Below, in pieces: positions 6,068-19,794 of a stretch of DNA of 32,000 bases. The notes under the pieces are model-generated. The model did no database searches. It was given only the letters and a program-made list of their open reading frames with translations, and was not told where the DNA came from. How positions within the stretch are numbered: the first letter of the stretch is position 1; each line of letters starts with the position of its first letter. The stretch comes from Candidatus Thalassarchaeaceae archaeon (GTDB lineage: Archaea > Thermoplasmatota > Poseidoniia > Poseidoniales > Thalassarchaeaceae): assembly GCA_045568075.1 (NCBI GenBank), contig JBJLBP010000001.1, positions 660,001-692,000 of the forward strand, given 5' to 3'. Both the position numbers and the translations under genes were made by a program.

Positions 6068-7108
6068 ATGTCTAAGCCGGATTTCGATACACTGCTCGCT
6101 ACTCACGATAAGGGTGACATGGCCGGTTATACTCGCCGATTCGTCGACGACCTTGAGGCGGCACTCGGTGCTGCTGTCGAAGTCGACGCGGATATGGATT
6201 GGAGCGGTGTTCTGTGTCTTGGTATGGGTGGTTCCGGTGCTGGAGGGATGTTTTTGTCAGCCCTCACCGACTCCTCTGGAGGACTACCATTCGTCGTTTG
6301 GAGAGACTATGGTCTCCCCTCTTGGTGGGGTCCTGATTGGCTGGTTGTGGCTACTTCTTATTCGGGTAACACCGAGGAAACACTGGATGGTGTTCGCACC
6401 GCCCTTGAGGGCGGTGGCGTGGTTGTAGGAATCTGCTCAGGCGGTGAGCTTGAGCAAGTACTCTCCACTAGTGACGATGCTCTTTGCCTAAGCGTTCCAG
6501 GTGGACAAATGCCACGTTCCGCCTTTGGTCATCTTCTTGGAACTCAACTCGCCGCTTGCTGGGCGCTAGGGATTCTTCCGCGGCCTGATGAAGAAGAATT
6601 AGCGGGCATGATTACCCGACTACGCACGGCTTCTGAGTCTGCAGACCTCATCGGAGGAGACGGGCGGGTTGCGGCGATGGCGGCTGGGATGGTGGATCGA
6701 TCAATAGGAATCGTCGCCGCTGGAGAAATGGCTCCTGCAGGAGTTCGCTTCACGAATCAACTTAACGAGAATTCTGACCGCTTCGCACGTCCGGTTACCT
6801 TACCTGAGATGAATCACAATGAGATTGTTGCTTGGGGTCGTGATGCTGAGTCACAGGCCTTGCTCTATCTGACGAGTCCTGCTACGCACCCTCGCGTGAG
6901 CGCTCGGCTTGGATGGATGATGGAAAATGTCGATGCGGGAGATTCATGGCTGCTTGATTGTGAGGGTGAGAGTCTCCTTGAGAGCCTCCTCATCGCTGCG
7001 CACATCACCGATTGGGTGAGTATCGCACTGGCTGTCACGAATGGTGTCGATCCATCAGAGATGGCTTCGATTGAGGGGCTGAAGGCGCACCTCGCGACTA
7101 TTCAGTAG
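6068..7108 (+). CDS. Bifunctional phosphoglucose/phosphomannose isomerase family (SIS domain)
   Basis: 346 aa. SIS blocks LGMGGSGAGG and VVATSYSGNTEETL. The overall layout resembles the archaeal/bacterial PGI/PMI family. Starts 2 nt after the NMD3 stop. Confidence 0.7.
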   Translation: MSKPDFDTLLATHDKGDMAGYTRRFVDDLEAALGAAVEVDADMDWSGVLCLGMGGSGAGGMFLSALTDSSGGLPFVVWRDYGLPSWWGPDWLVVATSYSGNTEETLDGVRTALEGGGVVVGICSGGELEQVLSTSDDALCLSVPGGQMPRSAFGHLLGTQLAACWALGILPRPDEEELAGMITRLRTASESADLIGGDGRVAAMAAGMVDRSIGIVAAGEMAPAGVRFTNQLNENSDRFARPVTLPEMNHNEIVAWGRDAESQALLYLTSPATHPRVSARLGWMMENVDAGDSWLLDCEGESLLESLLIAAHITDWVSIALAVTNGVDPSEMASIEGLKAHLATIQ

Positions 7109-7683
7109 ATTGGTCCAAGGACCAAACGCGGGTCCGGATAAATTGCTAGAGATTTCTCGCGGTCAGCCGGCGCGACGACTCCTGGCATATCGTGAGTCTC
7201 GGGTTCTTCGTACGAGAGTTGGAAGTGCAGGTGTGGTTCCCAACCTCCATTCTCGTGACGGTCGCCCATCCAACAGATGACCTCTCCGGGGCTAACCTTC
7301 TGACCGACTGACTTGCCTCTGACCGAGGCGGCATCAAGGTGTCCGTAGAGTGCCCAGATAGTGGTGCTGTCGAGGATATGCTTGGTAATCACGACGTAGC
7401 CATAATCGCCGTCGGCCGGATTGTAGCCAAAGTGTGAGATCTCACCGTCGGCAAAGGCCATGCAAGGAGTTCCGACGGGCGCCCCGATATCGATGCCAAT
7501 GTGGAGGAAGCGCGCACCATCGAAGAGATCTGTATTGTACATCCCAGGGCGCAATTCATCGTATCTCCCGATATCGTAGTCAAATTTTGAGGGTGAGTAA
7601 TTGCCGGTAGTGAAATCACGGACTTCGTAATCATCAGGGAGATTGACTACTGGATGGAACTCATGTGAATCCCAGTTGATCAT
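7102..7683 (-). CDS. M23 (LytM-type) metallopeptidase-domain protein, apparently cytoplasmic
   Basis: 193 aa. M23 zinc-ligand blocks FLHIGIDIGAPVGTP (HxxxD) and PHLHFQL (HxH), plus the YGHL block. I see no signal peptide or TM. The 3' end overlaps the PGI/PMI 3' end by 7 nt (convergent). Confidence 0.75.
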   Translation of the reverse strand: MINWDSHEFHPVVNLPDDYEVRDFTTGNYSPSKFDYDIGRYDELRPGMYNTDLFDGARFLHIGIDIGAPVGTPCMAFADGEISHFGYNPADGDYGYVVITKHILDSTTIWALYGHLDAASVRGKSVGQKVSPGEVICWMGDRHENGGWEPHLHFQLSYEEPETHDMPGVVAPADREKSLAIYPDPRLVLGPIY

Positions 7684-7708
7684 GACCCGCCGAAGCGGGT
7701 CGAGTCCA

Positions 7709-8908
7709 TCACTCCTCCTCTTCCGCTTCTTCGGCGAGATTCCTCACTCCGCTTTTCTCTCGAAGCTCCTTTGAGGTCTTGGCGCCGAGTTCCTTCAACA
7801 TCTCAGTCTGCCGAATGACGTTTCCAGTCCCATCAGTAAGTTGATTCTTAGCCTTGTCGAAGGCCTTCTGAGCCTGCCCCAACTCGAAGCCAATTTCTGT
7901 GAACGACTCAAGGAAAAGCACGACCTTGTCGTAGAGCTTTCCAGCGCGCTCAATCAGTTCAAGTTGATTCTTCGATTGCTTCTCCTTCTTCCACAGGTCC
8001 TGAATCATCATCAGAATGACCATGATGCTCGTTCCACTGACAATCTTGACTCGTTGGTCAGCGACAAGTCCTGCGTAAAGGTCAGGGCTGTACCGCATGG
8101 CATCGATGTAGGCGCTCTCTAGAGGCACAACCATGAGCACGAAATCGAGAGTATTGATGCTCTTCATGTGGCTGTAATTGGCTGAGGCGAGTTTCTTCAC
8201 ATGTGAGTTGATTGAATCGCAGTGAGCCTTCATCGCAGCCTCAGCTTCATCCTCATCTGCGGCATTGACAAACTGTGTGTAGGCTGTCAGTGAGACTTTT
8301 GAGTCGAGAACGACTTGTCTGTCACCTGGGAGGTTGACTACGAAATCTGTCCTCTTTCGACTCTTATCTGCAGCGGTCTCGGAGAGTTGTGTGACATAGT
8401 CACGTCCCTCGACGAAGCCCATGCTCTGAAGCAGATTCTCGACCACTACCTCGCCCCATGCACCTTGGGTGCTAGAGTCTCCCTTCAGTGCATTTGTCAA
8501 GGCCTGAGTATCGCTTGAAAGTTGAAGGCCAGCTGTCTCTACAGCGCCTATCTTAGTCTCTAGAGTGGCCTCTCGTTGAATCCTCTCTCTCTCGACTCGA
8601 TCCACAGTCTCGAAGTAGTCGCCGAGAGATTTCGAAAGGTCTTCAGTCGCCTTTGTAAAACTCCCTTCCTTCTCCTTATCAGCCGCTTCTACAGCGTCTG
8701 AGAAGGCTTGTGTGGCCGCCAGTTTGTACGTGTCGAGCATCTGATGTTGAGTGGTTTGAAATGCTTCTTCGCGAGCTTCTAATTGGGCTCTCACCTTGAC
8801 TAATTCAGTTTCTGCATCGCTCGGCCCAGAGTCCATTTTCTGCTTCGCTAGCAGCCATCCAATTGCCGCACCAACAAGAATTCCAACGACGACGAACACG
8901 ATTTCCAT
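7709..8908 (-). CDS. rmuC: DNA recombination protein RmuC family
   Basis: Start set to ATG 8908 (MEIVFVVVGILVGAAIGWLLA, an N-terminal TM); the track ORF extends to 8968. A long coiled-coil region is followed by the RmuC core RTDFVVNLPGDRQVVLDSKVSLTAY and DFVLMVVPLESAY. Confidence 0.8.
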   Translation of the reverse strand: MEIVFVVVGILVGAAIGWLLAKQKMDSGPSDAETELVKVRAQLEAREEAFQTTQHQMLDTYKLAATQAFSDAVEAADKEKEGSFTKATEDLSKSLGDYFETVDRVERERIQREATLETKIGAVETAGLQLSSDTQALTNALKGDSSTQGAWGEVVVENLLQSMGFVEGRDYVTQLSETAADKSRKRTDFVVNLPGDRQVVLDSKVSLTAYTQFVNAADEDEAEAAMKAHCDSINSHVKKLASANYSHMKSINTLDFVLMVVPLESAYIDAMRYSPDLYAGLVADQRVKIVSGTSIMVILMMIQDLWKKEKQSKNQLELIERAGKLYDKVVLFLESFTEIGFELGQAQKAFDKAKNQLTDGTGNVIRQTEMLKELGAKTSKELREKSGVRNLAEEAEEEE

Positions 8909-9034
8909 TTCACTCAGCAAACAAAGAGGAAATCGAGGGTATATCAAGACTGGCAATCCGCTACGCAAGTGTAAGTCTGTTTAGGAGCGGTGCTGACCGG
9001 TCTGTTTAGGAATGGATTGTCGATACCACCTGCT

Positions 9035-10151: not shown

Positions 10152-10817
10152 TTGACTTCGAGCCAACCGCACACGCCAATAGAGCGACATCCTACGCAGG
10201 GCGTGCGTCAGCGTCGCCTCGCTATGTTACTCTCCTCGCTTCCAGGGCATCCTTGCTCGGATGTCGGGTTGGAGCAGTATTCGACTAGTGGCGATTTGGC
10301 AGCAGCGTGGTTGGCGCAAATCGCCGCTTTCGGCGACCTTGATGCTGATTCAGTGGTCGCCGACTTGGGCGCGGGTAATGGAATTCTTGGAATCGGGGCC
10401 GCGCTGATGGGTGCTGGTCAGGTGATTCTTGTCGAATGCGATGAGGCTGCCTGTGCTGTAGCATTCGAGGCAGTCGAACAGACCGGAGTTGGAGATATTG
10501 CTGAGGTGATGTGCAAGGTGGTCAATGAGAATCTGGATATCGCTGGAGTCGATCTTGTAATTTCGAACCCTCCCTGGGGTTCTCAAACACCGAAAAGCGA
10601 TCGCCCATTCCTCGAAGCGATGCTTCGCAGTGGCGCGAATTCTCATTTGATGCACAGCGCTCAAGCGACTCATATTGAACCGTTATTTGAGGCGGCTGGT
10701 TGGACTGTTGAGCGATATTGGGAAGCGGACTTTGCCCTCCCAGCTGCCTACGCCCATCACTCCAGCCGTCAAGGTAAGACACGAGTCGCATTTTGGCGGC
10801 TGATTCCGCCCGAGTGA
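10152..10817 (+). CDS. METTL5-like (N6-adenine, NPPW motif) RNA methyltransferase
   Basis: Collinear by eye with human METTL5: LEQYSTSGDLAA vs LEQYPT, VVADLGAGNGILGIGAALMGAG (SAM motif I), VISNPPWGS (NPPF/W motif IV), FALPAAYAHH vs YDLPASYKFH. The start is ambiguous: TTG 10152, GTG 10203 or ATG 10224. Confidence 0.8.
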   Translation: MTSSQPHTPIERHPTQGVRQRRLAMLLSSLPGHPCSDVGLEQYSTSGDLAAAWLAQIAAFGDLDADSVVADLGAGNGILGIGAALMGAGQVILVECDEAACAVAFEAVEQTGVGDIAEVMCKVVNENLDIAGVDLVISNPPWGSQTPKSDRPFLEAMLRSGANSHLMHSAQATHIEPLFEAAGWTVERYWEADFALPAAYAHHSSRQGKTRVAFWRLIPPE

Positions 10818-10912: not shown

Positions 10913-12226
10913 ATGAGCGCTGCTGACGGAGACTTCGTCACACCCGGTAACACGGTTGAGATCCCGGCCGATGCTAACCTTGGCTCGGGCCTCTCCGAGA
11001 CCGATTCCGGTGCAATAGCTCTCGTCAGCGGCACCGTTGTCAGCAACGATGGAACCATTTCCATCGAGGCCAACAGACCCGAGACGAACTCACCTCAGAT
11101 TGGTGACGATGTTATCGCCGAGGTCACCAAGCTGATGCCCAAGGTCGCGATGGTACGCTTACTCCACATCGAGAAGGACGCAGGTCACCGCGACCTTGCC
11201 GCTCTGAATCTCTTCGCAGACATTTTCGTCACTGAGATTGTAGACCGATTCCTTCCATCCCCTGGCGATGCAATGCGAACTCGAGATTTGATCCGAGCTC
11301 GCATCACCCAAATTGAACCGAACGTCAAGGCAAGCACTCGTGGCTCGCCCGAACTCGGAGTCCTTTCGGCAATCTGCCCCGCTTGCGGCGTCGACCTAGT
11401 TACCTCTGCAGCTAAGGACGATTTCAACGTCGATTGCCCACGCTGCGACTACATTGGTTACCGCGCTCTTTCCAACGGCTTCGGCCACGGCCACATCCTC
11501 GGAGACGACGTTCAGAGCCTGAATCGTGGCGGCGAGCGTTGGTCTGCAGACGCTGAGAAGAATCTCGGTCACGAGGGCGCTCGACCCTACCTATCCCCAA
11601 TGGCCGATCATCGCCGCGGGCTCACTCATGATGCCCCAGCGGCGGCCATGCGCATGCGCGCAGCAATCACTGGAAAAGGAGGCCGTGGAAGAGGCGGTGG
11701 AGGCAAGGATCGCGTCCAGCACAAATGCAAGTGCACCCTCTGCGGAGTCGACACAACAGTTCCATTCAAGCCGACACCCGGCAAGCCAATTCGCTGTCGC
11801 GACTGCATGGGCAAAGTCAAGGATGGCAAAGCAACCAAGGAGCAATTAGCGGCTGAGAGAGAGGTTCTGACAAAGGCTCGAGCCGAGTCTTCAGAGACTT
11901 CAGGAATCAAACTTTTCGTGGCACGTCTAGCCTACAAAGCAACTGAAGATGAACTACGCGCTTTGTTCGCCGACCATGGCGAGGTTAGCGAGTGCAGCAT
12001 CGCCACCGACCGTGAGACCGGTCAATCTCGCGGCTTTGCTTTCGTCAAGTTCGCCAGTCGCAAAGCCGGTGAGAAGGCAATCAAGGAACTCGATGGAACT
12101 GAGATTCATGGCCGCAAGATTTCGGTTCAAGAATCCAATGACGGCGGGGGCCGCCGAGGTGGACGCGGAGGAAACCGCGGCGACCGCGGTGGTAATCGTG
12201 GTCGTGGTGGCGGACGCCGCAACTGA
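10913..12226 (+). CDS. csl4: Exosome complex RNA-binding subunit Csl4 fused to a CxxC-x17-CxxC zinc ribbon, an RRM domain and an RGG-rich tail
   Basis: ATG 10913; the track uses GTG 10892. The N-terminal ~200 aa shows Csl4 architecture: FVTPGNTV...ALVSGTV, an S1-like core GDDVIAEVTKLMPKVAMVRL...IRARITQIE, and the zinc ribbon CPACG...CPRC. Next come GKGGRGRGGGGK, then CTLCGVDTTVPFKPTPGKPIRCRDC (exactly 17 residues between the CxxC pairs). An RRM follows, with RNP-2 LFVARL and RNP-1 RGFAFVKF. The protein ends in GGGRRGGRGGNRGDRGGNRGRGGGRRN. Confidence 0.8.
   Translation: MSAADGDFVTPGNTVEIPADANLGSGLSETDSGAIALVSGTVVSNDGTISIEANRPETNSPQIGDDVIAEVTKLMPKVAMVRLLHIEKDAGHRDLAALNLFADIFVTEIVDRFLPSPGDAMRTRDLIRARITQIEPNVKASTRGSPELGVLSAICPACGVDLVTSAAKDDFNVDCPRCDYIGYRALSNGFGHGHILGDDVQSLNRGGERWSADAEKNLGHEGARPYLSPMADHRRGLTHDAPAAAMRMRAAITGKGGRGRGGGGKDRVQHKCKCTLCGVDTTVPFKPTPGKPIRCRDCMGKVKDGKATKEQLAAEREVLTKARAESSETSGIKLFVARLAYKATEDELRALFADHGEVSECSIATDRETGQSRGFAFVKFASRKAGEKAIKELDGTEIHGRKISVQESNDGGGRRGGRGGNRGDRGGNRGRGGGRRN
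11906..12223 (+). other. RRM (RNP-1/RNP-2) domain plus C-terminal RGG box inside the Csl4 fusion ORF
   Basis: IKLFVARLAYKATEDELRALFADHGEVSECSIATDRETGQSRGFAFVKFASRKAGEKAIKELDGTEIHGRKISVQ, followed by an Arg/Gly tail. It is in frame with the Csl4 part, with no stop between them in my reading. Confidence 0.8.
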
Positions 12227-12330
12227 GCCACTGCTCGACGGATTATTCACGTCGATTCTTTTCGCGTGCGAGGACTCGTTCAATCGAAGTCGTGAAGGCT
12301 CAGTGTTCAGCCGAGCGGCTGAGGGATTCG

Positions 12331-14112
12331 ATGGAAGGCTGGCTTGTCCTCGATGGTTACGAGGATGAACCGGCTGCCTTCGGCGTGCCGAATTACCTCG
12401 GATTCCATATTCGCTACATCTGCGGAGTGCTGGAAGCTCGAGGTATTCCATACACGTACATGACAGTTGATCAGTGGCGGCTCAAGCACAAGAATCGTCT
12501 ATCAGAACCAGATGAAAGAGCCGCCCTGCAGCGAGAACTTGCTGATCTTGACGGTGCGGTAGTTCTCGCTGGTTCCGTAGTTCCAGGCAAATATGTTCGA
12601 GGAACTCCGATTTCCCGTCGCGAACTCGATGAGTTTCTCGCCATCCTCCCGCACGAACACCCAGTTCTCGCGGGAGGCTGGGCCATCAGACATTGGCGCT
12701 ATGACGGCTGGATTCCGCTCCGCGCCAACCTATTCTGTGCAGTGCAAGACACCGATGCAACTCTCGACAATTTCCTCACTTCTGGTCAGTGGAAACACAA
12801 GCGACGTAGCCCCGAGCAATGGAATGAGTGGGCGAAGGCGGGAGCGAAGGGCCAGTGTGTCACCACTCACCCCGACCTCGTTACAGAAGATGGCCGAGCC
12901 GGCCCATTGACTTACGAGGTCGAACTCTACCAGGGCTGTGTCCGATTCAAGCGAGGATGCAAATTCTGTATCGAGCCGAAGAAGGGAGTTCCAATTTGGC
13001 GAGAAGAAGAGGATGTTATCGCTGAGATAACCACTGCTCTTGACAACGGAGTACGCCACGTAAGAATAGGCGGCGCTACAGACATTTACACCTACAAAGC
13101 CGAAGGAGTCGTCGAACTCGAATATCCAGTTCCGAACCCTGAGCCAATAGCTAGAGTTCTGCATGGTTTGAGAGAGGACGAACGCCTCGATATCCTTCAC
13201 GTGGACAACGGAAATCCATCCATAGTCGCAGAGAATCTCGAACCTGCAACAGAGATCACTCGCACCCTTGTAGAAACTCTCTCCGATGGCGCAGTGCTCT
13301 CTTTTGGACTAGAATCAGCCGACCCACGAGTGCACGAAGAAAATTGGCTCAATTGTGATTCAGACCAACTCAAAACAGCTATTCGCCACATCAATGAACA
13401 CGGTCGCGAACGAGGTGAAAGAGGTCTACCAAAACTTCTCCCAGGTCTCAATTTCATCGCTGGCCTAAACGGTGAAACAGAACAATCCTACGACCTCAAT
13501 CGCCAACTCCTCAACAGCCTGCGCGCGGAAGGGCTCTGGCTGCGCAGAATCAACATCCGCCAAGTCGAAGGTCAAGGCTTCCAACCAATTCCCGAAGCCA
13601 CCTTCCGCGCATTCAAAAAAAGCGTCAGAGAAGAAATCGACAAACCTCTCCTCGAAGAAATGTTCCCGGCAGGTACTCGCCTAACGAATGTCTGGTGGGA
13701 AGCCCACGAAGACCGCATTCGCAGACCCGAACAAGTGCTCAATCCAGAGCATAGAGACTCGGCGATTCATGGCCGCTCAGGAATCACCTTTGGCCGTCAA
13801 ATCGGAGCATACCCAATCCTTATCGGAATTCCTTACCAAATTCCGCTCGAAACAGAATCAGATATCATCGTCACAGGTCATGGAATGCGCAGCATCAGTG
13901 GAGTGGAGTCGAACCTATCGATCAATACTGCAACTCAGGCTCAACTCGAAGCCATCCCTGGCATAGGCAGCAAAGCGGCATGGCGAATCATCTCTGAAAG
14001 AGCGAAATTGTCCCGTAAAGCCCCCGAAAGGCCATTTGATAGCGTCGAAGAGGCACTAGAAGCAGCGGGACTCCAGTCCTACGGACTGTCTCTTGAGGTG
14101 CTCAACGCGTGA
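12331..14112 (+). CDS. Radical SAM-superfamily protein with C-terminal helix-hairpin-helix motif (COG1031-like)
   Basis: ATG 12331 is preceded by SD-like GAGGG; the track uses GTG 12292. N-terminus LVLDGYEDEPAAFGVPNYLGFHIRYICG. Cys cluster GCVRFKRGCKFCIEP. C-terminal HhH ATQAQLEAIPGIGSKAAWRII. Confidence 0.7.
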   Translation: MEGWLVLDGYEDEPAAFGVPNYLGFHIRYICGVLEARGIPYTYMTVDQWRLKHKNRLSEPDERAALQRELADLDGAVVLAGSVVPGKYVRGTPISRRELDEFLAILPHEHPVLAGGWAIRHWRYDGWIPLRANLFCAVQDTDATLDNFLTSGQWKHKRRSPEQWNEWAKAGAKGQCVTTHPDLVTEDGRAGPLTYEVELYQGCVRFKRGCKFCIEPKKGVPIWREEEDVIAEITTALDNGVRHVRIGGATDIYTYKAEGVVELEYPVPNPEPIARVLHGLREDERLDILHVDNGNPSIVAENLEPATEITRTLVETLSDGAVLSFGLESADPRVHEENWLNCDSDQLKTAIRHINEHGRERGERGLPKLLPGLNFIAGLNGETEQSYDLNRQLLNSLRAEGLWLRRINIRQVEGQGFQPIPEATFRAFKKSVREEIDKPLLEEMFPAGTRLTNVWWEAHEDRIRRPEQVLNPEHRDSAIHGRSGITFGRQIGAYPILIGIPYQIPLETESDIIVTGHGMRSISGVESNLSINTATQAQLEAIPGIGSKAAWRIISERAKLSRKAPERPFDSVEEALEAAGLQSYGLSLEVLNA

Positions 14113-14168
14113 TGCAAACAGTTCAGGCATAGGGAATAGTGATAATCTCAGCAAGTGCGCCAATCTTC

Positions 14169-17100
14169 ATGCTGAACGAGGAAACCAAGAGGACAATCGC
14201 GCTCGGAATCTGCACACTCTTCTTCGGGGTGACCATGCTCGGCTTCCTGATAGGCAGCCAAGGTGCAACGCTCGTACTCGGTGTTGAGGAGGAAGCGGAT
14301 TTCACGCACGGCAGCGGTCCGACGCTGAATGTGCGTGGCAGCGAGGCCGGCTCGGTCTTCTCTCATTCTGTCCTCAACGTCGCTGATGACGGACCAATCG
14401 TAGTGCTAGCAAATGGAACTACAATTGAGTGGTCTGCTGGTTCCGCAGTATATTCTGAGGATTCTGTGATTTCAAGTTCAGGAGCAGGACAATGTTCGAT
14501 TCTGAGTAATTATTCGATGTACTGCACTGGTTCGAATAATTACGGTCAATTGGGACTTGGTAACACAGCATTTAGCGCTGGATATGTCAGTTTGAGCCCT
14601 GAGCCAGTGGTTGTCGACGAGGGCAAGGATCACTCTTGTGCTATCCTCGTCGATGCGAGTTTGTGGTGCTGGGGTCGCAATCATCACGGTCAGATCGGGG
14701 ATGACTCGACGACTAATCGTGTATCGCCGGTACAAATCGATTTGGGCACCAACGTCGATGTTGTTGCCGTGTCTGCAGGCGAGGATCACACCTGTGCCAT
14801 CACTGACACAGGGGATGTCAAGTGCTGGGGATACAATATCCGTGGGCAATTGGGTGATGGCACCACCAACGATTCATATGTTCCAATCGAGGCTAACCAC
14901 TCAACTGGATTGCGCGCGGTTTCTTTGGTGACCTCGGGTCGTTCGACCTGCGCCATCTTCGACAATGGCTCGGTCGGTTGCTGGGGTAACAAATACACTG
15001 TATTCTCTGACAATGGTGCGGCAACCGCTAATGTCCATCTAGTCGATTTGGGCGCCGGCGCCACGGCAACGATGCTCGATGGCGTCGGTTCCCACACCTG
15101 CGCTGTCATCGACGATGGTTCGATGCAGTGCTGGGGAGTAAATACTCATGGACAACTCGGCGATGGCACCTGTTCCTCGACGATTAACTCGGCCTGCTCG
15201 GCTGAGAATATTTTCCCCGGCGAGGGAGATTCAACTGTACAAGTAAATTTGAGCGCCGGTCTTTCGGTGCTTGCAGCGGCGACCAGCACGGATTCAACGT
15301 GCGCACTTCTCTCGGATGATTCGCTGCGCTGCTGGGGAGCGCAGTCGGGAGAATTTGACAATACCAGCGATTCAATGCTCAACCCATACGAGTTGAGCTT
15401 CACCGATGGCGCACACGTCGCCTTTACCGATCAGGACATGGATGGCGACGGAACTCGCAATATCTTCGATACCCATCAGACCGGCGACGATGATGGTGAT
15501 GGCGTCATCGATACCGCCGACGATTATCCAAACAATCCTGCGCGTTGGACTGATTGCGATGACGGAAAGTATGGTCGTCTAATCTGTACCGATGCCGACG
15601 CAGGTCACTCTGCGCCAGGTAATACTCTGGTCCAGACTCAATGTGAGACGGGAACCTTCCAGCCTTACACTGGTCAATCGACCTGCCTCGATGCCTCCGC
15701 CGGTCATTACTCAGATTCGGACGGAGCCACATCTCAGAGTGCATGCGCGAGCGGATATTACAACGCCATGGTAGGACAATCATCCTGCACCGCCGCGCCT
15801 GCCGGTTCCTTCGCATCAACTACTGGTGGCGACGCTGGAGCAACCAATACGACGGCTCTACCGCTCTCAGTGATGAGTGCGAATTATTCTGCGACGGTAA
15901 ATGGCGGCAGCGACACCAGTGACGTATTCTCTCTCGATTTGCCACGAAATGCTTGGTTCTCTGCCAATCTCACCTCGCCGATGGGACAGGACTTCAACAT
16001 CGATCTACTGAACGAGACTTTCGATATGGTATCGTTCTCAGCGACCAATGCGACCCAAGAAGAGGTCTCAACATCGGCTGCCGGCAATGCAAGCGGATTC
16101 TATTACATCCGCATCATGTATTCCTCGGGTTCGACCGGACCTGGCAATTACTCACTGGTCATCGACCTACGTTCGACCTCTGGCTCGATGTCACAGATTG
16201 GCTCGACGGCGACCTTAGTCGATGCCGAACATGGAATCTCGACGACTCTGTGTGGCGTCGGAACTTGGCAGAATCAAGTCGGCTCGACTTCCTGTAATGC
16301 AGCCTCCGCCGGACACTATGTCTACGGAACAGGAGCGACCACACAAACCGCGTGCTCTCCAGGATATTACCAGCCGACCACTGGCCAGACGACTTGCATA
16401 ATTGCCTCAACTGGATATTACGTCCCAACTTCTGGCGCAGCCTCGCAGACCGCGGCCTCGCCCGGTTACTACGTCAATGTCTCAGGATCTTCTTTCCAGC
16501 AGGCCTGCGCTGCGGGAACTTACCAGACATCAGCGGCGCAGACCACTTGCTTCGCAGCTAATCCTGGATATTACGTACCGACAGCTGGACAAGCCAACAT
16601 GACAATCTGTGATGTTGGTACATACCAACCGAATTCAGGACAGACCTCCTGCATCGACGCGGACCCAGGCAATTATGTTCCAAATCAAGGGGCAACGGCA
16701 CAGTCCCAATGCTTGGTCGGTACTTACCAACCATACTCAGGCCAGTGGGCCTGTCTCAATGCCGAGCCTGGGCACTATGTTCCTACAGTGGCGTCCACCT
16801 CACAGATTGCCTGCGTTACTGGTACCTATCAGCCGGCGAGTGGTCAGGACAAATGTGATTCCGCCTCTGCCGGCTATTACGTCAATAGCACTGCAGCAGT
16901 CAGTCAAGATCCATGTTTGCCCGGAACTTACCAACCGAGTATCGGGCAGACTGAATGCCTAGCCGCCGATGCTGGACATTATGTCGATACGCAAGCGGCG
17001 ACGGCTCAGATTGCTTGTTCAGCGGGTTCTTACAATCCCAATACCGGAGCCGATGAAGCCAGCGATTGTATGCTGGCAGATACAGGGCACTACGTAGCTC

Positions 17101-19238
17101 TCGATGGCTCGGTTGCACAGTATTCCTGCTCTGCGGGGACCTTCGCGGCTAATATGGGACAAATCGCCTGTGATGCAGCGGCTCCAGGGTACTACGTGCC
17201 CGCTGTCGCCGCTGACGCTCAGATTCCTTGTGCACTCGGATCTTGGCAAGCCTCTCAGGGAGCGACCGAGTGCGCAACCGCCGACCCTGGGCATTATGTC
17301 GATCAGGAGGCCTCCACAATGCAGACAGCTTGCGCAGCGGGCTCATACAATCCAAGCAGTGGTTCGATCGACTCAGATGACTGCATGGCAGCCGATGCTG
17401 GAAGTTACGTAGGCAATGAAGGCTCAGCCGAGCAATTACTCTGTCCAGCAGGGACCTATCAGCCAGCACCGGGTCAGTCAAGTTGTATCGATGCTGACTT
17501 CGGTTACCATGTGCCGACAGATGGTTCGACGGGACAGATTGGTTGCAGTATGGGATCCTACCAAGGAGAACGAGCCGGCACAGAGTGTCTGACAGCTGAG
17601 CCCGGCCATTACGTCGATTCTCACTTTGCATCCGCTCAGCAAGCCTGCCTCGCGGGCACATACAATCCCAACAGTGGATCAACCTCGGCTAACGATTGCA
17701 TCGAGGCGAACTCAGGATACTTCGTCGCTCATACAGGATCATCCGCTCAAGAGGCATGCGAATTAGGAACCTATCAGCCGAGCGCAGGATGGTCAAACTG
17801 CCTCGTAGCCGACCCTGGTTTCTATGTTGATACGATGGCTGCAACAGCCCAAATCGCTTGTGAGGCAGGTGACTACAACCCGAACTCGGGGTCGGTCACG
17901 GCCTCAGCCTGTTCCGATGCAGACCCAGGAAACTACGTCCCTGACCCCGCCTCCTCTGCCCAGATTCCATGTGAGGAGGGAAATTATCAGAACCTCCGCG
18001 GACAGACCGAGTGCAAATCCGCGGGCCTCGGTTATTACGTCGATTCCCCGTCAGCAATCTCACAAAATCCAGCCCCTATTGACTACTACATAGACACCGA
18101 AGGAGCGACTGAAGCACTGCCTTGCCCTAATGGGCAGATGACAATGGTGGAAGCAGCCAAGGATGTCAGCGATTGTCACATCGATACCGACGGCGACCGA
18201 ATTCCCGACTTCCTCGACAGAGACGATGACGGCGACGGTATCGACGACGGTTGGGATCTATGTGATTACGGCTTGATGAACTGGACCAGTACCAAATTAA
18301 ACGACTGGGATCAAGATGGCTGCGAGGATACCATCGAGGACAATGACGACGATAATGACGGATACCTCGATGACAATGATGTCCTCCCGCTCGACCCCGA
18401 AGAATGGCTCGACACTGACGGCGACGGAATCGGCAATAACGCGGATACCGACGACGACGGCGATGGTATTCCTGACCTTGAAGAGCAGAGTCTCGGTTTG
18501 GATCCGCTCGTTGCAGATTACGATGGCGATGGATATAACGACAGCATCGACGCTTTCCCCAAGGATGCTGATGAATGGATTGACACCGACGGCGACGGGG
18601 TCGGAGATAATTCTGACAGGTTCCCGACGATCAAATTCTACCAGAATTACGTTCAGGCCTCGATTCATCTTGTGATTGGCCTGATCATCCTCGGTGTCAT
18701 CGGCTTCAGTGTGCGCATGGGAATGGGTCGAAGTGAGAAACCTGAGGCCGATGATAGCACGCACGAATTACGTGAGATTGGAGGTGTCGAAGTAAGAATT
18801 TCGGCCGAGGATATGCTGTATGATGACGAGCCGGTTCCAGAACCAGAGCCTGAGCCTGAATTCACGCCACCTGTAGCGATGTTCGATTTGGACTCGGCTC
18901 AGCCTTCGGTGGCAGAAGTCGAGGAAGACGAACCAACGACTGAGCCGATGGCTTGGGATCTAACTCATGAGGCCGAGTCGGAGGAAGAATCTCTCGAAGA
19001 AGACTACGACGAGTCAGCCGATGAAGTATCAGAGGTAGGCGAGCTTGACCTAGGGTCATTACTCGATACGGCTCCGCCACCAAAGCCACGCGTCGAAGCT
19101 CCTGAGGATGCTCAAATCAACGAGCATGGACAGAAGGTTTGGCAAGATGCAAACGACGATATTTGGGTGCAGAACCCCGACGGCAGTCTACTGAAACACA
19201 ACGTATTGACTGGAGCCTGGGAGCCATACACGCAGTAG
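14169..19238 (+). CDS. Giant (1,689-codon) type-I membrane surface protein: N-terminal signal/anchor, RCC1-like beta-propeller, Asp-rich Ca-binding repeats, PPC-like domain, ~20 Cys-containing ephrin-receptor-like (GCC2/GCC3-type) repeats, second Ca-binding block, TM, acidic cytoplasmic tail
   Basis: ATG 14169 (MLNEETKRTIALGICTLFFGVTMLGFLIG); the track uses GTG 14139. A single uninterrupted frame. The domain evidence is listed in the sub-features and findings. Confidence 0.9.
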   Translation: MLNEETKRTIALGICTLFFGVTMLGFLIGSQGATLVLGVEEEADFTHGSGPTLNVRGSEAGSVFSHSVLNVADDGPIVVLANGTTIEWSAGSAVYSEDSVISSSGAGQCSILSNYSMYCTGSNNYGQLGLGNTAFSAGYVSLSPEPVVVDEGKDHSCAILVDASLWCWGRNHHGQIGDDSTTNRVSPVQIDLGTNVDVVAVSAGEDHTCAITDTGDVKCWGYNIRGQLGDGTTNDSYVPIEANHSTGLRAVSLVTSGRSTCAIFDNGSVGCWGNKYTVFSDNGAATANVHLVDLGAGATATMLDGVGSHTCAVIDDGSMQCWGVNTHGQLGDGTCSSTINSACSAENIFPGEGDSTVQVNLSAGLSVLAAATSTDSTCALLSDDSLRCWGAQSGEFDNTSDSMLNPYELSFTDGAHVAFTDQDMDGDGTRNIFDTHQTGDDDGDGVIDTADDYPNNPARWTDCDDGKYGRLICTDADAGHSAPGNTLVQTQCETGTFQPYTGQSTCLDASAGHYSDSDGATSQSACASGYYNAMVGQSSCTAAPAGSFASTTGGDAGATNTTALPLSVMSANYSATVNGGSDTSDVFSLDLPRNAWFSANLTSPMGQDFNIDLLNETFDMVSFSATNATQEEVSTSAAGNASGFYYIRIMYSSGSTGPGNYSLVIDLRSTSGSMSQIGSTATLVDAEHGISTTLCGVGTWQNQVGSTSCNAASAGHYVYGTGATTQTACSPGYYQPTTGQTTCIIASTGYYVPTSGAASQTAASPGYYVNVSGSSFQQACAAGTYQTSAAQTTCFAANPGYYVPTAGQANMTICDVGTYQPNSGQTSCIDADPGNYVPNQGATAQSQCLVGTYQPYSGQWACLNAEPGHYVPTVASTSQIACVTGTYQPASGQDKCDSASAGYYVNSTAAVSQDPCLPGTYQPSIGQTECLAADAGHYVDTQAATAQIACSAGSYNPNTGADEASDCMLADTGHYVALDGSVAQYSCSAGTFAANMGQIACDAAAPGYYVPAVAADAQIPCALGSWQASQGATECATADPGHYVDQEASTMQTACAAGSYNPSSGSIDSDDCMAADAGSYVGNEGSAEQLLCPAGTYQPAPGQSSCIDADFGYHVPTDGSTGQIGCSMGSYQGERAGTECLTAEPGHYVDSHFASAQQACLAGTYNPNSGSTSANDCIEANSGYFVAHTGSSAQEACELGTYQPSAGWSNCLVADPGFYVDTMAATAQIACEAGDYNPNSGSVTASACSDADPGNYVPDPASSAQIPCEEGNYQNLRGQTECKSAGLGYYVDSPSAISQNPAPIDYYIDTEGATEALPCPNGQMTMVEAAKDVSDCHIDTDGDRIPDFLDRDDDGDGIDDGWDLCDYGLMNWTSTKLNDWDQDGCEDTIEDNDDDNDGYLDDNDVLPLDPEEWLDTDGDGIGNNADTDDDGDGIPDLEEQSLGLDPLVADYDGDGYNDSIDAFPKDADEWIDTDGDGVGDNSDRFPTIKFYQNYVQASIHLVIGLIILGVIGFSVRMGMGRSEKPEADDSTHELREIGGVEVRISAEDMLYDDEPVPEPEPEPEFTPPVAMFDLDSAQPSVAEVEEDEPTTEPMAWDLTHEAESEEESLEEDYDESADEVSEVGELDLGSLLDTAPPPKPRVEAPEDAQINEHGQKVWQDANDDIWVQNPDGSLLKHNVLTGAWEPYTQ
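14481..15350 (+). other. RCC1-like repeat region (about 6 blades)
   Basis: Recurring blade signature: YCTGSNNYGQLGLGNT, LWCWGRNHHGQIGDDSTT, VKCWGYNIRGQLGDGTT, VGCWGNKYTVFSDNG, MQCWGVNTHGQLGDGTC, LRCWGAQSGEFDNT. Each is preceded by an H(S/T)CA(I/L/V) strand. Boundaries are approximate. Confidence 0.75.
16251..18176 (+). repeat. In-frame array of ~18-19 degenerate 33-37-aa Cys-pair repeats (C-x-x-G-[TS]-[YW]-[QN]-P-x-x-G-Q-x-x-C-x-x-A-x-x-G-x-Y-V ...), ephrin-receptor-like/GCC2_GCC3-type
   Basis: Example units: CDVGTYQPNSGQTSCIDADPGNYVPNQGATAQSQ, CLVGTYQPYSGQWACLNAEPGHYVPTVASTSQIA, CLPGTYQPSIGQTECLAADAGHYVDTQAATAQIA. Two to three further units lie upstream at ~15585-15830, before the PPC-like domain (~15858-16172). 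Confidence 0.8.
18177..18625 (+). repeat. Asp-rich thrombospondin-type-3-like calcium-binding repeats (DxDxDGxxDxxD)
   Basis: DTDGDRIPDFLDRDDDGDGIDD, DWDQDGCEDTIEDNDDDNDGYLDDND, DTDGDGIGNNADTDDDGDGIPD, DYDGDGYNDSID, DTDGDGVGDNSD. A shorter block of the same type lies at ~15430-15540. A TM helix (ASIHLVIGLIILGVIGFSV) follows at ~18656-18712. Confidence 0.75.
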
Positions 19239-19338
19239 AGGAGACCCCGTTTCGTTGTGTTTTCCACAACCGAACTGACCAATCGCGCGCGTCGCATTGA
19301 TAATCCGACACCTGATGCGAGAGTCACCGGTGAGAGAA

Positions 19339-19794
19339 ATGATAGACATCGATAACGAACATATCCCAACAATCGAGGCAAGCGCCCACTGCGATGGACC
19401 CTGTGGAGTCTACGACCCAGCGAGCGCTCGAGTAGCCGCGGAGGCGGTCCAATCAATGACTAAGAAAATGGTTGCACTCAGTGAAAGTAGCGCAGATTGC
19501 AGTTCTGCATCATACATCAACACCATGAGCCGATACGCAGTAATCAAGGAAGAAGAATCACAGAAGTGTAAGGACGAATTGTTGATTCTCTGGACCGACT
19601 TCTTCAAGCCTCAACACCTAGAGACAATTCCAGACCTGCACGACACATTCTGGCAGGCCGCAAAGCTCTGCTCCGCCTGCAAGGTCGAAGTCTCAGAACA
19701 ACATGCTCAGGAACTAATGGATGCGGTAGAAGCGATTCATCACATGTTCTGGGCTGCCAAGGGCCGTGACGTCCCATGGATACGCGCTTCCTGA
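19339..19794 (+). CDS. sodN: Nickel-containing superoxide dismutase precursor (Ni-SOD)
   Basis: The Ni-hook HCDGPCGVYDPA (canonical HCDLPCGVY) starts at 19387, directly after a short leader ending ...IEASA. ATG 19339 is preceded by SD-like GGTGAG. Alternative starts are ATG 19315 and TTG 19297. Confidence 0.85.
   Translation: MIDIDNEHIPTIEASAHCDGPCGVYDPASARVAAEAVQSMTKKMVALSESSADCSSASYINTMSRYAVIKEEESQKCKDELLILWTDFFKPQHLETIPDLHDTFWQAAKLCSACKVEVSEQHAQELMDAVEAIHHMFWAAKGRDVPWIRAS

What the first reader, a model, noticed from the sequence alone, without database searches (positions are those of the whole stretch)
10913..12226. Exosome cap protein Csl4 fused to a CxxC-x17-CxxC zinc ribbon, an RRM domain and an RGG box
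Seen in sequence: one uninterrupted 437-codon frame joins five parts. They are a Csl4-type N-terminal/S1/zinc-ribbon module, a GRG-rich linker, a CxxC-x17-CxxC ribbon (CTLCG...VPFKPTPGKPIRCRDC), a canonical RRM (LFVARL / RGFAFVKF) and a eukaryote-style RGG tail. Established knowledge: archaeal Csl4 is normally a ~180-200-aa three-domain cap subunit. RRM domains with RGG boxes are typical of eukaryotic and some bacterial RNA-binding proteins, and are uncommon in archaea. Inference: the fusion would hard-wire an extra single-strand-RNA-binding and possibly condensate-prone module onto the exosome cap. I do not know of this architecture being described.
Basis: partly seen in the sequence, partly recalled or inferred. 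Interest (0 to 1): 0.75.

Follow-up and report, generated by a model that had tools for sequence, protein, structure and literature searches.

The report
Exosome cap protein with RNA-binding tail
In Marine Group II archaea, among the most abundant archaea in the surface ocean, the Csl4 subunit that caps the RNA-degrading exosome carries a conserved zinc finger, an RRM domain and a basic tail; this built-in RNA-binding arm is in the databases under inconsistent names, and I found no paper that describes it.

Summary
Window 10913-12226 (+) is one intact 437-codon gene. Residues 1-193 are a full Csl4 (N-terminal domain, S1, Zn ribbon). They match the solved A. fulgidus Csl4 by sequence (E 5.6e-10) and by fold (E 2.3e-15). 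Residues 267-302 are a CxxC-x17-CxxC zinc finger, 332-409 a canonical RRM, and 410-437 an Arg/Gly tail.

It is not an artefact. The identical protein occurs on 50 independent contigs, and more than 100 clusters of full-length relatives (down to 56% identity) share the same synteny. The organism is Ca. Thalassarchaeaceae (MGIIb).

Published MGII tables show that Rrp4, Rrp41, Rrp42 and DnaG are present, so the ring to be capped exists.

Three refinements:
- The "linker" contains a conserved ~45-aa module shared across the clade.
- The RGG box is a local expansion; 82 of 112 relatives have no RGG, only a short Arg-rich tail.
- The tail is modular across the lineage: zf+RRM here, 2xRRM in clusters that include a Poseidoniaceae (MGIIa) MAG, 2xzf elsewhere.

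Most likely function (inferred): a tethered basic RNA-capture arm on the exosome cap. I found no paper describing it. Verdict: a new variant of a known kind, of moderate interest.

The parts
10913..12226 (+). Whole gene: Csl4 with a C-terminal RNA-binding cassette (437 aa plus stop)
   Evidence: ORF and translation. The identical protein is on 50 contigs from NCBI, JGI, Logan, ENA and Tara. More than 100 full-length homolog clusters.
10913..11077 (+). Csl4 N-terminal domain (aa 1-55), with the invariant G6-D7-x-V9-T-P11-G12 motif
   Evidence: NCBIfam Csl4 alignment starts at profile position 1. AF2 pLDDT 77-86. Motif present in 112 of 112 sequences. The distant variants hit Pfam ECR1_N.
11090..11362 (+). 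S1 (OB-fold) domain (aa ~60-150)
   Evidence: Colinear with the Csl4 profile and with 2ba1_A. Beta-barrel strands with pLDDT 85-92 in the second model. Fold match to Csl4 chains.
11363..11491 (+). Csl4 Zn-ribbon domain (aa 151-193; C155, C158, C175, C178); canonical Csl4 ends here
   Evidence: The Cys pairs align with those of A. fulgidus Csl4, and the chain ends at query ~193. Cysteines conserved in 111-112 of 112 sequences.
11492..11623 (+). Clade-specific conserved extension (aa 194-237): LNxxGxRWSxxxE, two short helices, then GARPYLSPxADHRRG
   Evidence: Many invariant positions in 37 sequences. N204, G207, R209, W210, E215 and D232 are invariant or nearly so even across variants with other tails. 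Residues 194-220 are modelled at pLDDT ~69-83 and 221-237 below 50.
11624..11710 (+). Variable Gly/Arg-rich flexible linker (aa 238-266), net charge +4
   Evidence: Length- and sequence-variable in the family. pLDDT below 50 except for one short helix. Charge.
11711..11818 (+). CxxC-x17-CxxC zinc finger (aa 267-302; C274, C277, C295, C298), net charge +6
   Evidence: TIGR04272 at 40.2 bits (cut-off 36) and PF23477 at E 1.4e-9. Cysteines conserved in 111-112 of 112 sequences. pLDDT ~80-84. Zinc binding was shown for M. mazei proteins with this domain (PMC12704099).
11819..11905 (+). Conserved alpha-helix joining the zinc finger to the RRM (aa 303-331)
   Evidence: Helix 309-330 at pLDDT ~82. 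L312, E315, R316 and R323 are invariant. The same KExLxxEREV segment follows the second zinc finger in the RRM-less variant P0127.
11906..12139 (+). RRM domain (aa 332-409): RNP2 = KLFVARL, RNP1 = RGFAFVKF
   Evidence: RRM_1 at E 3.8e-21. Foldseek hits to RBM39, HuR and other RRMs with TM ~0.9 and rmsd ~1 A. L334, F335, G374, F375, A376 and F377 are invariant in 112 of 112 sequences.
12140..12223 (+). Arg/Gly tail (aa 410-437; 4 RGG; net +7; 50% Gly), a local expansion of a conserved short Arg-rich tail
   Evidence: Motif counts, and the family comparison: median tail 15 aa, net +6, and 82 of 112 members without RGG. pLDDT ~34. Charge.
10152..10817 (+). Upstream neighbour: small SAM methyltransferase (MTS/PrmA-like), conserved partner of the csl4 gene
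   Evidence: Pfam MTS at E 8.7e-11. Same position in loci L001-L005, which include distant tail variants. The MGIIb counterpart is annotated K07579 / COG2263 / arCOG00910 'putative methylase'.
12292..14112 (+). Downstream neighbour: radical-SAM protein with a C-terminal helix-hairpin-helix
   Evidence: Pfam Radical_SAM plus HHH_3. Same position in L001-L004 and L126-L128. The MGIIb counterpart is arCOG01359 / COG1031.

Best explanation
This is the Csl4 cap subunit of the RNA exosome of a Marine Group IIb archaeon (Ca. Thalassarchaeaceae), and apparently the only Csl4 in the genome.

Shown:
- An acidic, canonical three-domain Csl4 core (aa 1-193, net -11) is followed by 244 added residues that are basic (net +16).
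- The added part consists of a conserved clade-specific segment, a flexible Gly/Arg linker, a zinc finger, a helix, a canonical RRM with intact RNP1/RNP2 aromatic residues, and an Arg-rich tail.
- The lineage encodes Rrp41, Rrp42, Rrp4 and DnaG.

Inferred:
- The Csl4 core sits on the Rrp41-Rrp42 ring as in solved archaeal exosomes.
- The extension leaves from the Zn-ribbon domain, the domain whose deletion abolishes aRNase J binding in P. abyssi.
- The disordered linker (about 45 residues, giving a reach of tens of angstroms) lets the zinc finger, RRM and basic tail act as a tethered arm.
- The arm captures single-stranded RNA and raises its local concentration at the S1 pore, for 3'-5' phosphorolysis or for the reverse tailing reaction. 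It would add affinity, and possibly sequence preference, that plain Csl4 lacks. With up to three Csl4 per cap there would be up to three arms.
- Related lineages carry 2xRRM or 2xzinc-finger cassettes on the same core. This suggests selection for 'extra RNA binding on the cap' rather than for one particular domain.
For: Csl4 identity:
- Full-length profile match; 37 of 37 family members match the Csl4 model, best E 1.7e-30; distant variants score 97-119 bits, above the 90-bit cut-off.
- Pairwise hit to 2ba1_A.
- AF2 model of aa 1-266 (pLDDT 76.6, pTM 0.60): the best PDB matches are Csl4 chains (2ba1_A, E 2.3e-15, TM 0.72), ahead of Rrp4 and Rrp40.
- Zn ligands conserved.

RNA-binding cassette:
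- RRM and zinc-finger profile hits above the curated cut-offs.
- RRM fold match with TM ~0.9.
- RNP1 and RNP2 residues invariant in 112 of 112 sequences.
- Basic charge of the added part.

Real and selected:
- Identical protein on 50 contigs.
- Every segment except the tail is conserved.
- Synteny conserved at 59% identity and in the variants.
- The apparent 'split' RRM genes are truncated gene calls.

Ring present:
- RRP4, RRP41 and RRP42 in 137-138 of 158 and 85-86 of 92 MGII genomes, the same frequency as alaS (PMC6336850 Supplementary Data 10).
- One MGIIb MAG has SDO1-Rrp4-Rrp41-Rrp42-L37Ae, DnaG, and a single arCOG00676 gene of ~422 aa with an RRM hit in the same methylase / radical-SAM context (PMC9723583).

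Csl4 as a docking hub:
- DnaG needs Csl4 to bind the exosome (PMC3672285).
- aRNase J needs the Csl4 C-terminal domain (PMC7144898).
Against: - No direct evidence that this protein binds the ring or RNA. Everything about mechanism is inferred from homology.
- The window protein scores 84 bits, below NCBI's 90-bit Csl4 cut-off, so the core is somewhat divergent.
- In the one transcript table seen, the Csl4 gene's values (0.13, 0.03, 0.07) are far lower than those of Rrp4 (3.3, 3.9) and Rrp41 (1.6, 1.8) in the same MAG. Csl4 may therefore be a minor cap component. The units were not checked.
- My DNA scan for the Rrp41 catalytic signature returned no locus titled Poseidoniales among 120, and a Thermoplasmatota Rrp41 query found none in its top 120. 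MGII Rrp41 may be divergent. I never saw its sequence and did not check its active site.
- 'Only Csl4 in the genome' rests on one truncated table and on the absence of a CSL4 row in another.
- Residues 221-266 are disordered in the models, so the geometry is a guess.
Confidence: 0.6

Rival explanations
1. The protein works mainly off the exosome, as a free multi-domain RNA chaperone or regulator like the bacterial or plant glycine-rich RRM proteins. The S1 and Zn-ribbon domains would serve simply as further RNA-binding modules.
For: The RRM's best NCBIfam hit is the bacterial 'RNA-binding regulator' model NF058537, at 86 bits against a cut-off of 100. JGI names some homologs 'cold-inducible RNA-binding protein' or 'nucleolin'. 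The Csl4 score is below the cut-off. Transcript values are much lower than for Rrp4 and Rrp41, so expression is not obviously stoichiometric with the ring.
Against: The N-terminal domain's only known role (established knowledge) is anchoring to the ring. Its GDxVTPG motif is invariant in 112 of 112 sequences, it is confidently modelled, and the whole core superposes on Csl4 in the assembled exosome. The ring, Rrp4 and DnaG are retained. No other Csl4 was seen in the MGIIb MAG table.
Confidence: 0.15
2. The extension is chiefly a protein-docking or regulatory module rather than an RNA-capture arm. It could recruit the exosome to ribosomes or to a helicase or nuclease partner, replace or modulate DnaG or aRNase J binding, or fold back to gate the cap.
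For: The most conserved added stretch (aa 194-237, including GARPYLSPxADHRRG) is partly predicted as disordered. That pattern is typical of a short linear binding motif. It is shared across variants whose RNA-binding cassettes differ. Most non-window variants also end in a shared S(R/K)RE..A..EEG peptide. In other archaea the Csl4 C-terminal domain is where partners dock.
Against: The RRM keeps all of its RNA-contacting aromatic residues. The cassette is strongly basic. Alternative tails are again nucleic-acid-binding domains, 2xRRM or 2xzinc finger. This fits RNA binding as the selected property. The two ideas are not exclusive: the 194-237 segment may dock a partner while the cassette binds RNA.
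Confidence: 0.15
3. The Arg/Gly tail drives phase separation, so the exosome cap nucleates RNA-protein condensates.
For: In this protein the tail has 4 RGG motifs within 28 residues and is 50% glycine, and there is a second GRGRGGGG patch at aa 254-262. A trimeric cap would make it multivalent.
Against: 82 of 112 relatives have no RGG at all, and their tails are only 11-19 residues of Arg-rich sequence. So this cannot be the conserved function. There is no experimental or predictive test here.
Confidence: 0.05
4. Artefact: an assembly chimera, a sequencing frameshift, or two adjacent genes merged.
For: None found. Some NCBI MAGs list a separate 115-aa 'RNA-binding protein' at this locus.
Against: The identical 437-aa protein occurs on 50 contigs from five sources, the longest 1.6 Mb. 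There are more than 100 full-length homolog clusters. The 115-aa entries are truncated calls: all 487 aa of the fused protein map in one frame with no frameshift.
Confidence: 0.01

Closest known systems
Canonical archaeal Csl4 (e.g. A. fulgidus AF_0206, PDB 2BA1 / 3M7N; NCBIfam NF034126; arCOG00676; K07573)
   Same: N-terminal domain, S1 and four-Cys Zn ribbon are colinear over the whole ~180-aa protein. It is the best fold match. The genome context includes the ring, Rrp4 and DnaG elsewhere in the genome.
   Different: 244 extra C-terminal residues: a conserved segment, a linker, a zinc finger, a helix, an RRM and a basic tail. The score is slightly below the curated cut-off (84 against 90 bits).
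Archaeal DnaG as the Csl4-tethered RNA-binding accessory of the exosome cap (S. solfataricus)
   Same: It adds RNA-binding capacity to the Csl4 side of the cap. DnaG binds only the Csl4-exosome and enhances binding of A-rich RNA (PMC3672285 and PMC4227792). Functionally it is the nearest archaeal precedent.
   Different: DnaG is a separate TOPRIM-containing protein bound non-covalently. Here the extra RNA binder is covalently fused and built from an RRM and a zinc finger. MGII also keeps DnaG, so the tail adds to it rather than replacing it.
Eukaryotic exosome adaptors built from RRM and zinc-knuckle proteins (NEXT: RBM7 RRM + ZCCHC8 + MTR4; TRAMP: Air1/2 zinc knuckles + Trf4/5 + Mtr4). Established knowledge, not tested here.
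   Same: The same logic and the same domain types: an RRM and/or a small zinc module deliver single-stranded RNA to the exosome cap.
   Different: Those are separate, helicase-containing complexes recruited to the cap. Here there is a direct fusion, no helicase, and no homology implied beyond the generic RRM. The resemblance is an analogy only.
Bacterial PNPase (an RNase PH-type ring with covalently attached KH and S1 RNA-binding domains). Established knowledge; the PNPase-Rrp41 relationship appears.
   Same: RNA-binding domains are covalently tethered above a phosphorolytic RNase PH ring.
   Different: In PNPase they are fused to the ring subunit itself. Here extra domains are fused to a cap subunit that already has an S1 domain.
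Glycine/arginine-rich single-RRM proteins (bacterial Rbp 'RNA-binding regulator' NF058537; plant GR-RBP, PDB 4C7Q; CIRBP, PDB 1X5S; nucleolin)
   Same: A canonical RRM followed by an RGG or Arg/Gly-rich tail. These are among the best sequence and fold matches for aa 330-437.
   Different: Those are free-standing proteins. Here the module is the C-terminus of an exosome subunit, it is preceded by a CxxC-x17-CxxC finger, and the RGG repeats are not conserved in orthologs.

Membership tests
Archaeal Csl4 exosome cap subunit | Colinear N-terminal domain + S1 + Zn-ribbon architecture, with a significant full-length match to the family profile | tested here: met
   NF034126: aa 7-190 = profile 1-178 of 180, E 1.1e-23. 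37 of 37 family members match. phmmer to 2ba1_A at E 5.6e-10 over 3-177 of 179.
Archaeal Csl4 exosome cap subunit | Score above NCBI's curated equivalog cut-off (an annotation threshold, not a biological feature) | tested here: not met
   84 bits against a 90-bit cut-off for the window protein. Related tail variants score 97-119 bits. This explains why PGAP names some orthologs 'Csl4' and others 'CxxC-x17-CxxC domain-containing protein'. It does not outweigh the sequence, fold and context evidence.
Archaeal Csl4 exosome cap subunit | Four cysteine Zn ligands in the C-terminal ribbon | tested here: met
   C155, C158, C175 and C178 align with the A. fulgidus cysteines and are conserved in 111-112 of 112 sequences.
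Archaeal Csl4 exosome cap subunit | Three-dimensional fold of Csl4 as seen in assembled exosomes | tested here: met
   The AF2 model of aa 1-266 (pLDDT 76.6) gives 2ba1_A as top hit (E 2.3e-15, TM 0.72 on the target). Human, yeast and C. thermophilum Csl4 chains follow, ahead of Rrp4 and Rrp40. This is a predicted structure, not an experimental one.
Archaeal Csl4 exosome cap subunit | The genome also encodes the Rrp41-Rrp42 ring (and Rrp4 and DnaG) | tested here: met
   From published tables for the lineage, not for this exact genome. RRP4/41/42 are in ~87-93% of 250 MGII genomes. MGIIb MAG SIMO Bin 19-2 has Rrp4-Rrp41-Rrp42, DnaG and the RRM-bearing Csl4. The 32-kb window itself holds none of these genes.
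Archaeal Csl4 exosome cap subunit | Physical incorporation into the trimeric cap on the ring | not testable with these tools
   Needs reconstitution, or at least a multimer structure prediction.
RRM (RNA recognition motif, PF00076) | Beta-alpha-beta-beta-alpha-beta fold with RNP2 and RNP1 motifs carrying the RNA-stacking aromatic residues | tested here: met
   RRM_1 at E 3.8e-21, profile 1-69 of 70. Predicted strands and helices in the canonical order, pLDDT ~83. Foldseek TM ~0.9 and rmsd ~1 A to solved RRMs. F335, F375 and F377 are invariant.
RRM (RNA recognition motif, PF00076) | Binds single-stranded RNA | not testable with these tools
   Inferred from the intact RNP motifs only.
CxxC-x17-CxxC zinc finger (TIGR04272 / PF23477 zf_Tbcl_2) | ~37-residue domain with the CxxC-x17-CxxC spacing, scoring above the curated cut-offs | tested here: met
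   40.2 bits (cut-off 36) and 37.9 bits (cut-off 27). C274-x2-C277-x17-C295-x2-C298, conserved in 111-112 of 112 sequences.
CxxC-x17-CxxC zinc finger (TIGR04272 / PF23477 zf_Tbcl_2) | Binds zinc; ligand (RNA, DNA or protein) known | not testable with these tools
   Zinc binding was shown by ICP-MS for two M. mazei small proteins with this domain; their function is unknown (PMC12704099).
RGG/RG-box proteins | Clustered RGG repeats (a tri-RGG or di-RGG arrangement; this definition is recalled from the literature and was not checked here) | tested here: inconclusive
   Met in this protein: RGG-RGG-x4-RGG-x3-RGG within aa 414-434. It is not a property of the family: 82 of 112 orthologs have zero RGG and only 7 have two or more.

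The most novel reading that the evidence does not exclude
Poseidoniia have turned the exosome cap itself into a substrate-selecting adaptor. The covalently attached RRM and zinc-finger arms, exchanged between families as cassettes (zf+RRM, 2xRRM, 2xzf), would give the archaeal exosome sequence- or structure-specific targeting. Eukaryotes achieve this with separate RRM and zinc-knuckle cofactors such as NEXT and TRAMP. This would be an independent, simpler invention of adaptor-guided RNA decay in a very abundant ocean archaeon. The conserved 194-237 segment would be a second, protein-docking element.
Probability: 0.2. Interest if true: 0.75.

Novelty: new variant of a known kind. Interest (0 to 1): 0.55.

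Why it matters
How the archaeal exosome chooses its substrates is poorly understood. The known cap proteins (Rrp4, Csl4, DnaG) give little more than a poly(A) preference. Here a whole class of very abundant, uncultured marine archaea has replaced plain Csl4 with versions that carry extra, modular RNA-binding cassettes, including RRMs. To my knowledge RRMs are rare in archaea; I did not quantify this.

That offers a natural experiment. The same core carries different tails in sister families, so the contribution of cap-tethered RNA binders to exosome targeting can be tested with recombinant proteins, without needing to culture the organism.

There is also a practical annotation lesson. The same ortholog is currently named 'Csl4', 'CxxC-x17-CxxC domain-containing protein', 'hypothetical protein', 'nucleolin' or 'cold-inducible RNA-binding protein'. 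KEGG-based pangenome tables miss it as CSL4. Some MAGs list only a 115-aa fragment.

Tried and rejected
1. Finding MGII Rrp41 directly from sequence:
- The search for related loci with a 3-sequence Rrp41 alignment on viral contigs used peptide patterns that were too narrow, and no hit was confirmed.
- A hand-made degenerate DNA pattern for QAD[AG]G[ST]R-x11-ADAG on GTDB genomes was highly specific: 118 of 120 loci were titled as archaeal (L104, titled 'bacterium', also carries a full archaeal-type Rrp41).
- A Thermoplasmatota Rrp41 (from L067) searched against 5.8 billion proteins gave only non-Poseidoniales names in its top 120.
- The question was finally settled from published supplementary tables.

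2. Dombrowski 2020 supplements: no per-lineage exosome data for Poseidoniales.

3. Donor of the zf+RRM cassette: P0148, the only free-standing protein that matched across the junction, is a plain 3xRRM protein with no zinc finger, in an uninformative context. The origin remains undetermined.

4. Whole-protein AF2 model: pTM 0.30, with the S1 domain poorly modelled from 37 close homologs. Its fold search returned only RRMs. I redid it on aa 1-266 with a more diverse alignment.

5. A true gene split in relatives: rejected.

6. Rfam and tRNA scans of the window: nothing found.

7. The recalled claim that csl4 is generally paired with a COG2263 methylase across archaea could not be verified in the searchable literature. 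I state the pairing only for this clade.
Full report
**1. The observation.**
Window 10913-12226 (+) is a single open frame of 437 codons plus a stop. The opposite strand is full of stops. A GTG seven codons upstream is possible, but the methionine at 10913 is invariant among 37 aligned homologs.

- The NCBIfam Csl4 model aligns end to end: aa 7-190 to profile positions 1-178 of 180, E 1.1e-23, 84 bits against a curated cut-off of 90.
- The CxxC-x17-CxxC domain passes both curated thresholds: TIGR04272 at 40.2 bits (cut-off 36), Pfam zf_Tbcl_2 at 37.9 bits (cut-off 27).
- RRM_1 scores E 3.8e-21.
- The last 28 residues hold four RGG motifs.

**2. It is a real Csl4.**
The first 266 residues on their own hit exactly one meaningful PDB sequence: the Csl4 chain of the A. 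fulgidus Csl4-exosome (2ba1_A; E 5.6e-10). The match is colinear from residue 3 to 177 of 179, with both cysteine pairs aligned. That chain ends opposite residue ~193 of the query.

An AF2 model of aa 1-266, built on an alignment that includes distant relatives, is confident for residues 1-220 (mean pLDDT 76.6, pTM 0.60). Its best structural matches are Csl4 chains from archaeal, human, yeast and C. thermophilum exosomes (top hit 2ba1_A, E 2.3e-15, TM 0.72). Rrp4 and Rrp40 rank lower. The N-terminal GDxVTPG motif and the four ribbon cysteines are conserved in 111-112 of 112 family members.

**3. It is not an artefact, and it is not rare.**
The identical 437-aa protein is recorded on 50 contigs from NCBI, JGI, Logan, ENA and Tara, the longest 1.6 Mb. 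Its names are:
- UniRef100_A0A075GIK1;
- 'CxxC-x17-CxxC domain-containing protein [Candidatus Thalassarchaeaceae archaeon]'.

A search of 5.8 billion clustered proteins listed 120 relatives, 111 of them full length (400-480 aa), down to 56% identity. Nearly all carry both RRM_1 and zf_Tbcl_2. At 59% identity the neighbourhood is unchanged: NMD3, PGI, M23 peptidase, RmuC, Asd, small methyltransferase, this gene, radical-SAM/HHH, giant surface protein.

Some NCBI MAGs list a separate 115-aa 'RNA-binding protein' at this locus. tblastn shows the complete fused protein (487 aa in that lineage) encoded in one frame with no frameshift, or running off a contig end. I therefore found no true split.

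**4. The organism and the rest of the machine.**
Source names place the window type in Ca. Thalassarchaeaceae (MGIIb), within Poseidoniales, Thermoplasmatota.

The mechanism depends on whether these archaea have the RNase PH ring, and my own sequence-based attempts to show this failed (see section 8). Two published supplementary tables answer it:
- In the 'MGII Core' sheet of Tully 2019, RRP4, RRP41 and RRP42 occur in 137-138 of 158 and 85-86 of 92 genomes, the same frequencies as alanyl-tRNA synthetase.
- In Damashek et al. 2021, the MGIIb (genus O1) MAG SIMO Bin 19-2 has SDO1-Rrp4-Rrp41-Rrp42-L37Ae in a row and an archaeal DnaG. It also has a single arCOG00676 / K07573 'Csl4' gene of 1269 nt (~422 aa) with a Pfam RRM hit. 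That gene is flanked by a K07579 / COG2263 'putative methylase' and an arCOG01359 radical-SAM/HHH gene, exactly the context seen in the window.

Neither paper's main text discusses this gene. Tully's core table has no CSL4 row, which suggests that KEGG assignment misses the extended protein.

**5. Anatomy of the added 244 residues.**
- Conservation across 112 sequences is high in every segment except the tail.
- Residues 194-237 are a clade-specific conserved module (LNxxGxRWSxxxE, then GARPYLSPxADHRRG). Positions N204, G207, R209, W210, E215 and D232 stay invariant or nearly so even in distant relatives whose tails differ.
- Residues 194-220 are modelled with moderate confidence as two short helices, and 221-266 are disordered.
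- A variable Gly/Arg linker (238-266) follows.
- Then come the zinc finger (C274, C277, C295, C298; 111-112 of 112 conserved), a conserved helix (309-330) and the RRM, modelled together at pLDDT ~80-85.
- The RRM superposes on solved RRMs at ~1 A. Its RNP2 and RNP1 residues (L334, F335, G374, F375, A376, F377) are invariant in all 112 sequences.
- The Csl4 core is acidic (net -11, pI 4.6). The added part is basic (net +16, pI 9.9).
- The RGG box is not a family trait. 82 of 112 members have no RGG. The median tail is 15 residues, Arg-rich, with net charge about +6. The 28-residue, 4xRGG tail is shared only with the closest relative.

**6. The tail is modular across the lineage.**
An exhaustive HMMER search of 1.84 billion representatives found one representative of the window type, plus about nine more distant clusters that share the Csl4 core and the 194-237 segment but differ downstream:
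- Csl4 + 2xCxxC-x17-CxxC with no RRM (P0127, on a 3.0-Mb contig);
- Csl4 + 1xRRM (P0145).

These variants pass NCBI's Csl4 cut-off at 97-119 bits. They keep the upstream methyltransferase.

The simplest reading is one orthologous csl4 locus whose 3' end has repeatedly acquired or exchanged nucleic-acid-binding cassettes. The tentative assignment of zf+RRM to MGIIb and 2xRRM to MGIIa rests on only a few named MAGs.

**7. How it most likely works.**
Shown:
- a canonical Csl4 core;
- an intact RRM, a zinc finger and a basic tail on a flexible tether;
- the ring, Rrp4 and DnaG present in the lineage.

From the literature:
- The archaeal cap is a trimer of Rrp4 and/or Csl4.
- DnaG reaches the exosome only through Csl4 (PMC3672285).
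- aRNase J binds Csl4 through its C-terminal domain and exposed S1 phenylalanines (PMC7144898).

Inferred: the core docks on Rrp41-Rrp42 as usual, and the extension leaves from the Zn-ribbon domain, the partner-docking C-terminal domain of Csl4 in other archaea. There they capture single-stranded RNA and raise its local concentration at the S1 pore for degradation or tailing. The conserved but partly disordered 194-237 segment may instead, or in addition, be a docking motif for a partner.

I give the identity claim about 0.9 and the tethered-capture mechanism about 0.6. The rivals are a free RNA chaperone, a mainly protein-docking or regulatory role, and condensate formation. They are listed separately with their tests.

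One caution: in the single transcript table I saw, the Csl4 gene's values are 10-100 times lower than those of Rrp4 and Rrp41 in the same MAG. Csl4-containing caps may therefore be a minority species. I did not check the units.

**8. What led nowhere.**
I verified a recalled S. solfataricus Rrp41 sequence against the PDB; it is identical to 2br2_B. From it I built a three-sequence alignment.
- The automatic peptide patterns were too narrow.
- One hit, L067, carries a textbook psmA-SBDS-Rrp4-Rrp41-Rrp42 superoperon in another Thermoplasmatota. Its Rrp41 did not bring Poseidoniales into the top 120 either.

So I never saw an MGII Rrp41 sequence. Its active-site status is unchecked, and the absence of pattern hits remains unexplained. 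The donor of the RRM or zinc-finger cassette was not identified.

**9. Comparison with what is known, and novelty.**
This is a member of the Csl4 family, with one annotation threshold narrowly missed, and it carries members of the RRM and CxxC-x17-CxxC families.
- Its nearest functional precedent in archaea is DnaG, which is non-covalently tethered to Csl4.
- The nearest analogies are eukaryotic RRM and zinc-knuckle exosome adaptors (NEXT, TRAMP) and the KH and S1 domains fused to the bacterial PNPase ring. These rest on established knowledge and were not tested here.

Seven of the eight full-text searches I ran looked for a description of a Csl4-RRM or Csl4-zinc-finger architecture, and none found one. 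The library covers only open-access PMC and bioRxiv, so a description elsewhere cannot be excluded. The sequences themselves are public and automatically annotated.

I rate it a new variant of a known kind, with interest 0.55. It is a clean, lineage-wide and experimentally tractable remodelling of a core RNA-decay machine in a very abundant archaeon. It is still a domain fusion whose function is so far inferred.

Noticed in passing
P0124, P0125, P0127-P0129, P0132, P0134, P0136, P0145 (C-termini; alignment): Csl4 variants with other tails (2xRRM, 2xzf, 1xRRM) all end in a shared short peptide, roughly S(R/K)RE..A..(R/E)EEG. The window (MGIIb) type lacks it. It looks like a conserved C-terminal docking motif of unknown partner.
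   Followed up: no
P0136 (L004 10001-11410): This Csl4-2xRRM variant has lost most Zn-ribbon cysteines (CSNSG...VCHTSG in place of CxxCG...CxxC). Its ribbon probably no longer binds zinc.
   Followed up: no
L126-L128 (NCBI GCA_012964315.1, GCA_012965585.1, GCA_012965105.1); protein P0287: The 115-aa 'RNA-binding protein' entries of Poseidoniales MAGs (HIA39672.1, HIA89663.1, HIB59551.1, PXY71757.1) are truncated gene calls of the Csl4-2xRRM gene. The full 487-aa protein maps in one frame in L128.
   Followed up: yes
GTDB genome scan, loci L006-L125: The Rrp41 catalytic-signature pattern (QAD[AG]G[ST]R-x11-ADAG) hit 118 loci titled as archaeal, but none titled Poseidoniales, although published tables show MGII has Rrp41. 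The MGII Rrp41 active site was never inspected.
   Followed up: partly
window 10152-10817 and 12292-14112; L001-L005: The triad small methyltransferase (K07579 / COG2263 / arCOG00910) - csl4 - radical-SAM with C-terminal HHH (arCOG01359) is conserved across MGII, and the methyltransferase across all tail variants examined. This may be a functional RNA-modification and decay gene cluster.
   Followed up: partly
window 14139-19238 (+): A giant 1699-aa predicted surface protein. It has N-terminal RCC1-type repeats, dozens of Cys-containing 'G.Y...G...C' repeats (Ephrin_rec_like), TSP3-type Asp-rich calcium-binding repeats, a C-terminal membrane helix and an acidic tail. It is syntenic in relatives.
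   Followed up: no
window 19297-19794 (+): A nickel superoxide dismutase (Sod_Ni, E 4e-46) in an archaeon. A 2023 paper on SOD transitions in MGII turned up in search (PMC10783094) but was not read.
   Followed up: no
window 7102-8968 (-): Bacterial-type genes sit next to each other in this archaeal genome: an M23 peptidase (193 aa) and RmuC (419 aa, E 7e-80). Both are syntenic in relatives at 59% identity, so they are stable residents and were presumably acquired from bacteria.
   Followed up: no
L104 (JACMIO010000012.1, 'MAG: bacterium isolate ES-bin-123'): A record titled 'bacterium' encodes a complete archaeal-type Rrp41 of 248 aa. The MAG is probably mislabelled or contaminated.
   Followed up: no
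PDB 8xfx_A / 8xie_A compared with L020 and L121: The Rrp41 of PDB entries 8XFX and 8XIE (organism not shown by the tool) looks very similar by eye to Rrp41 of low-GC 'Thermoplasmata' and 'Methanobacteriota' MAGs. It is probably a Thermoplasmatales exosome structure and would be the closest solved ring for modelling the MGII complex.
   Followed up: no
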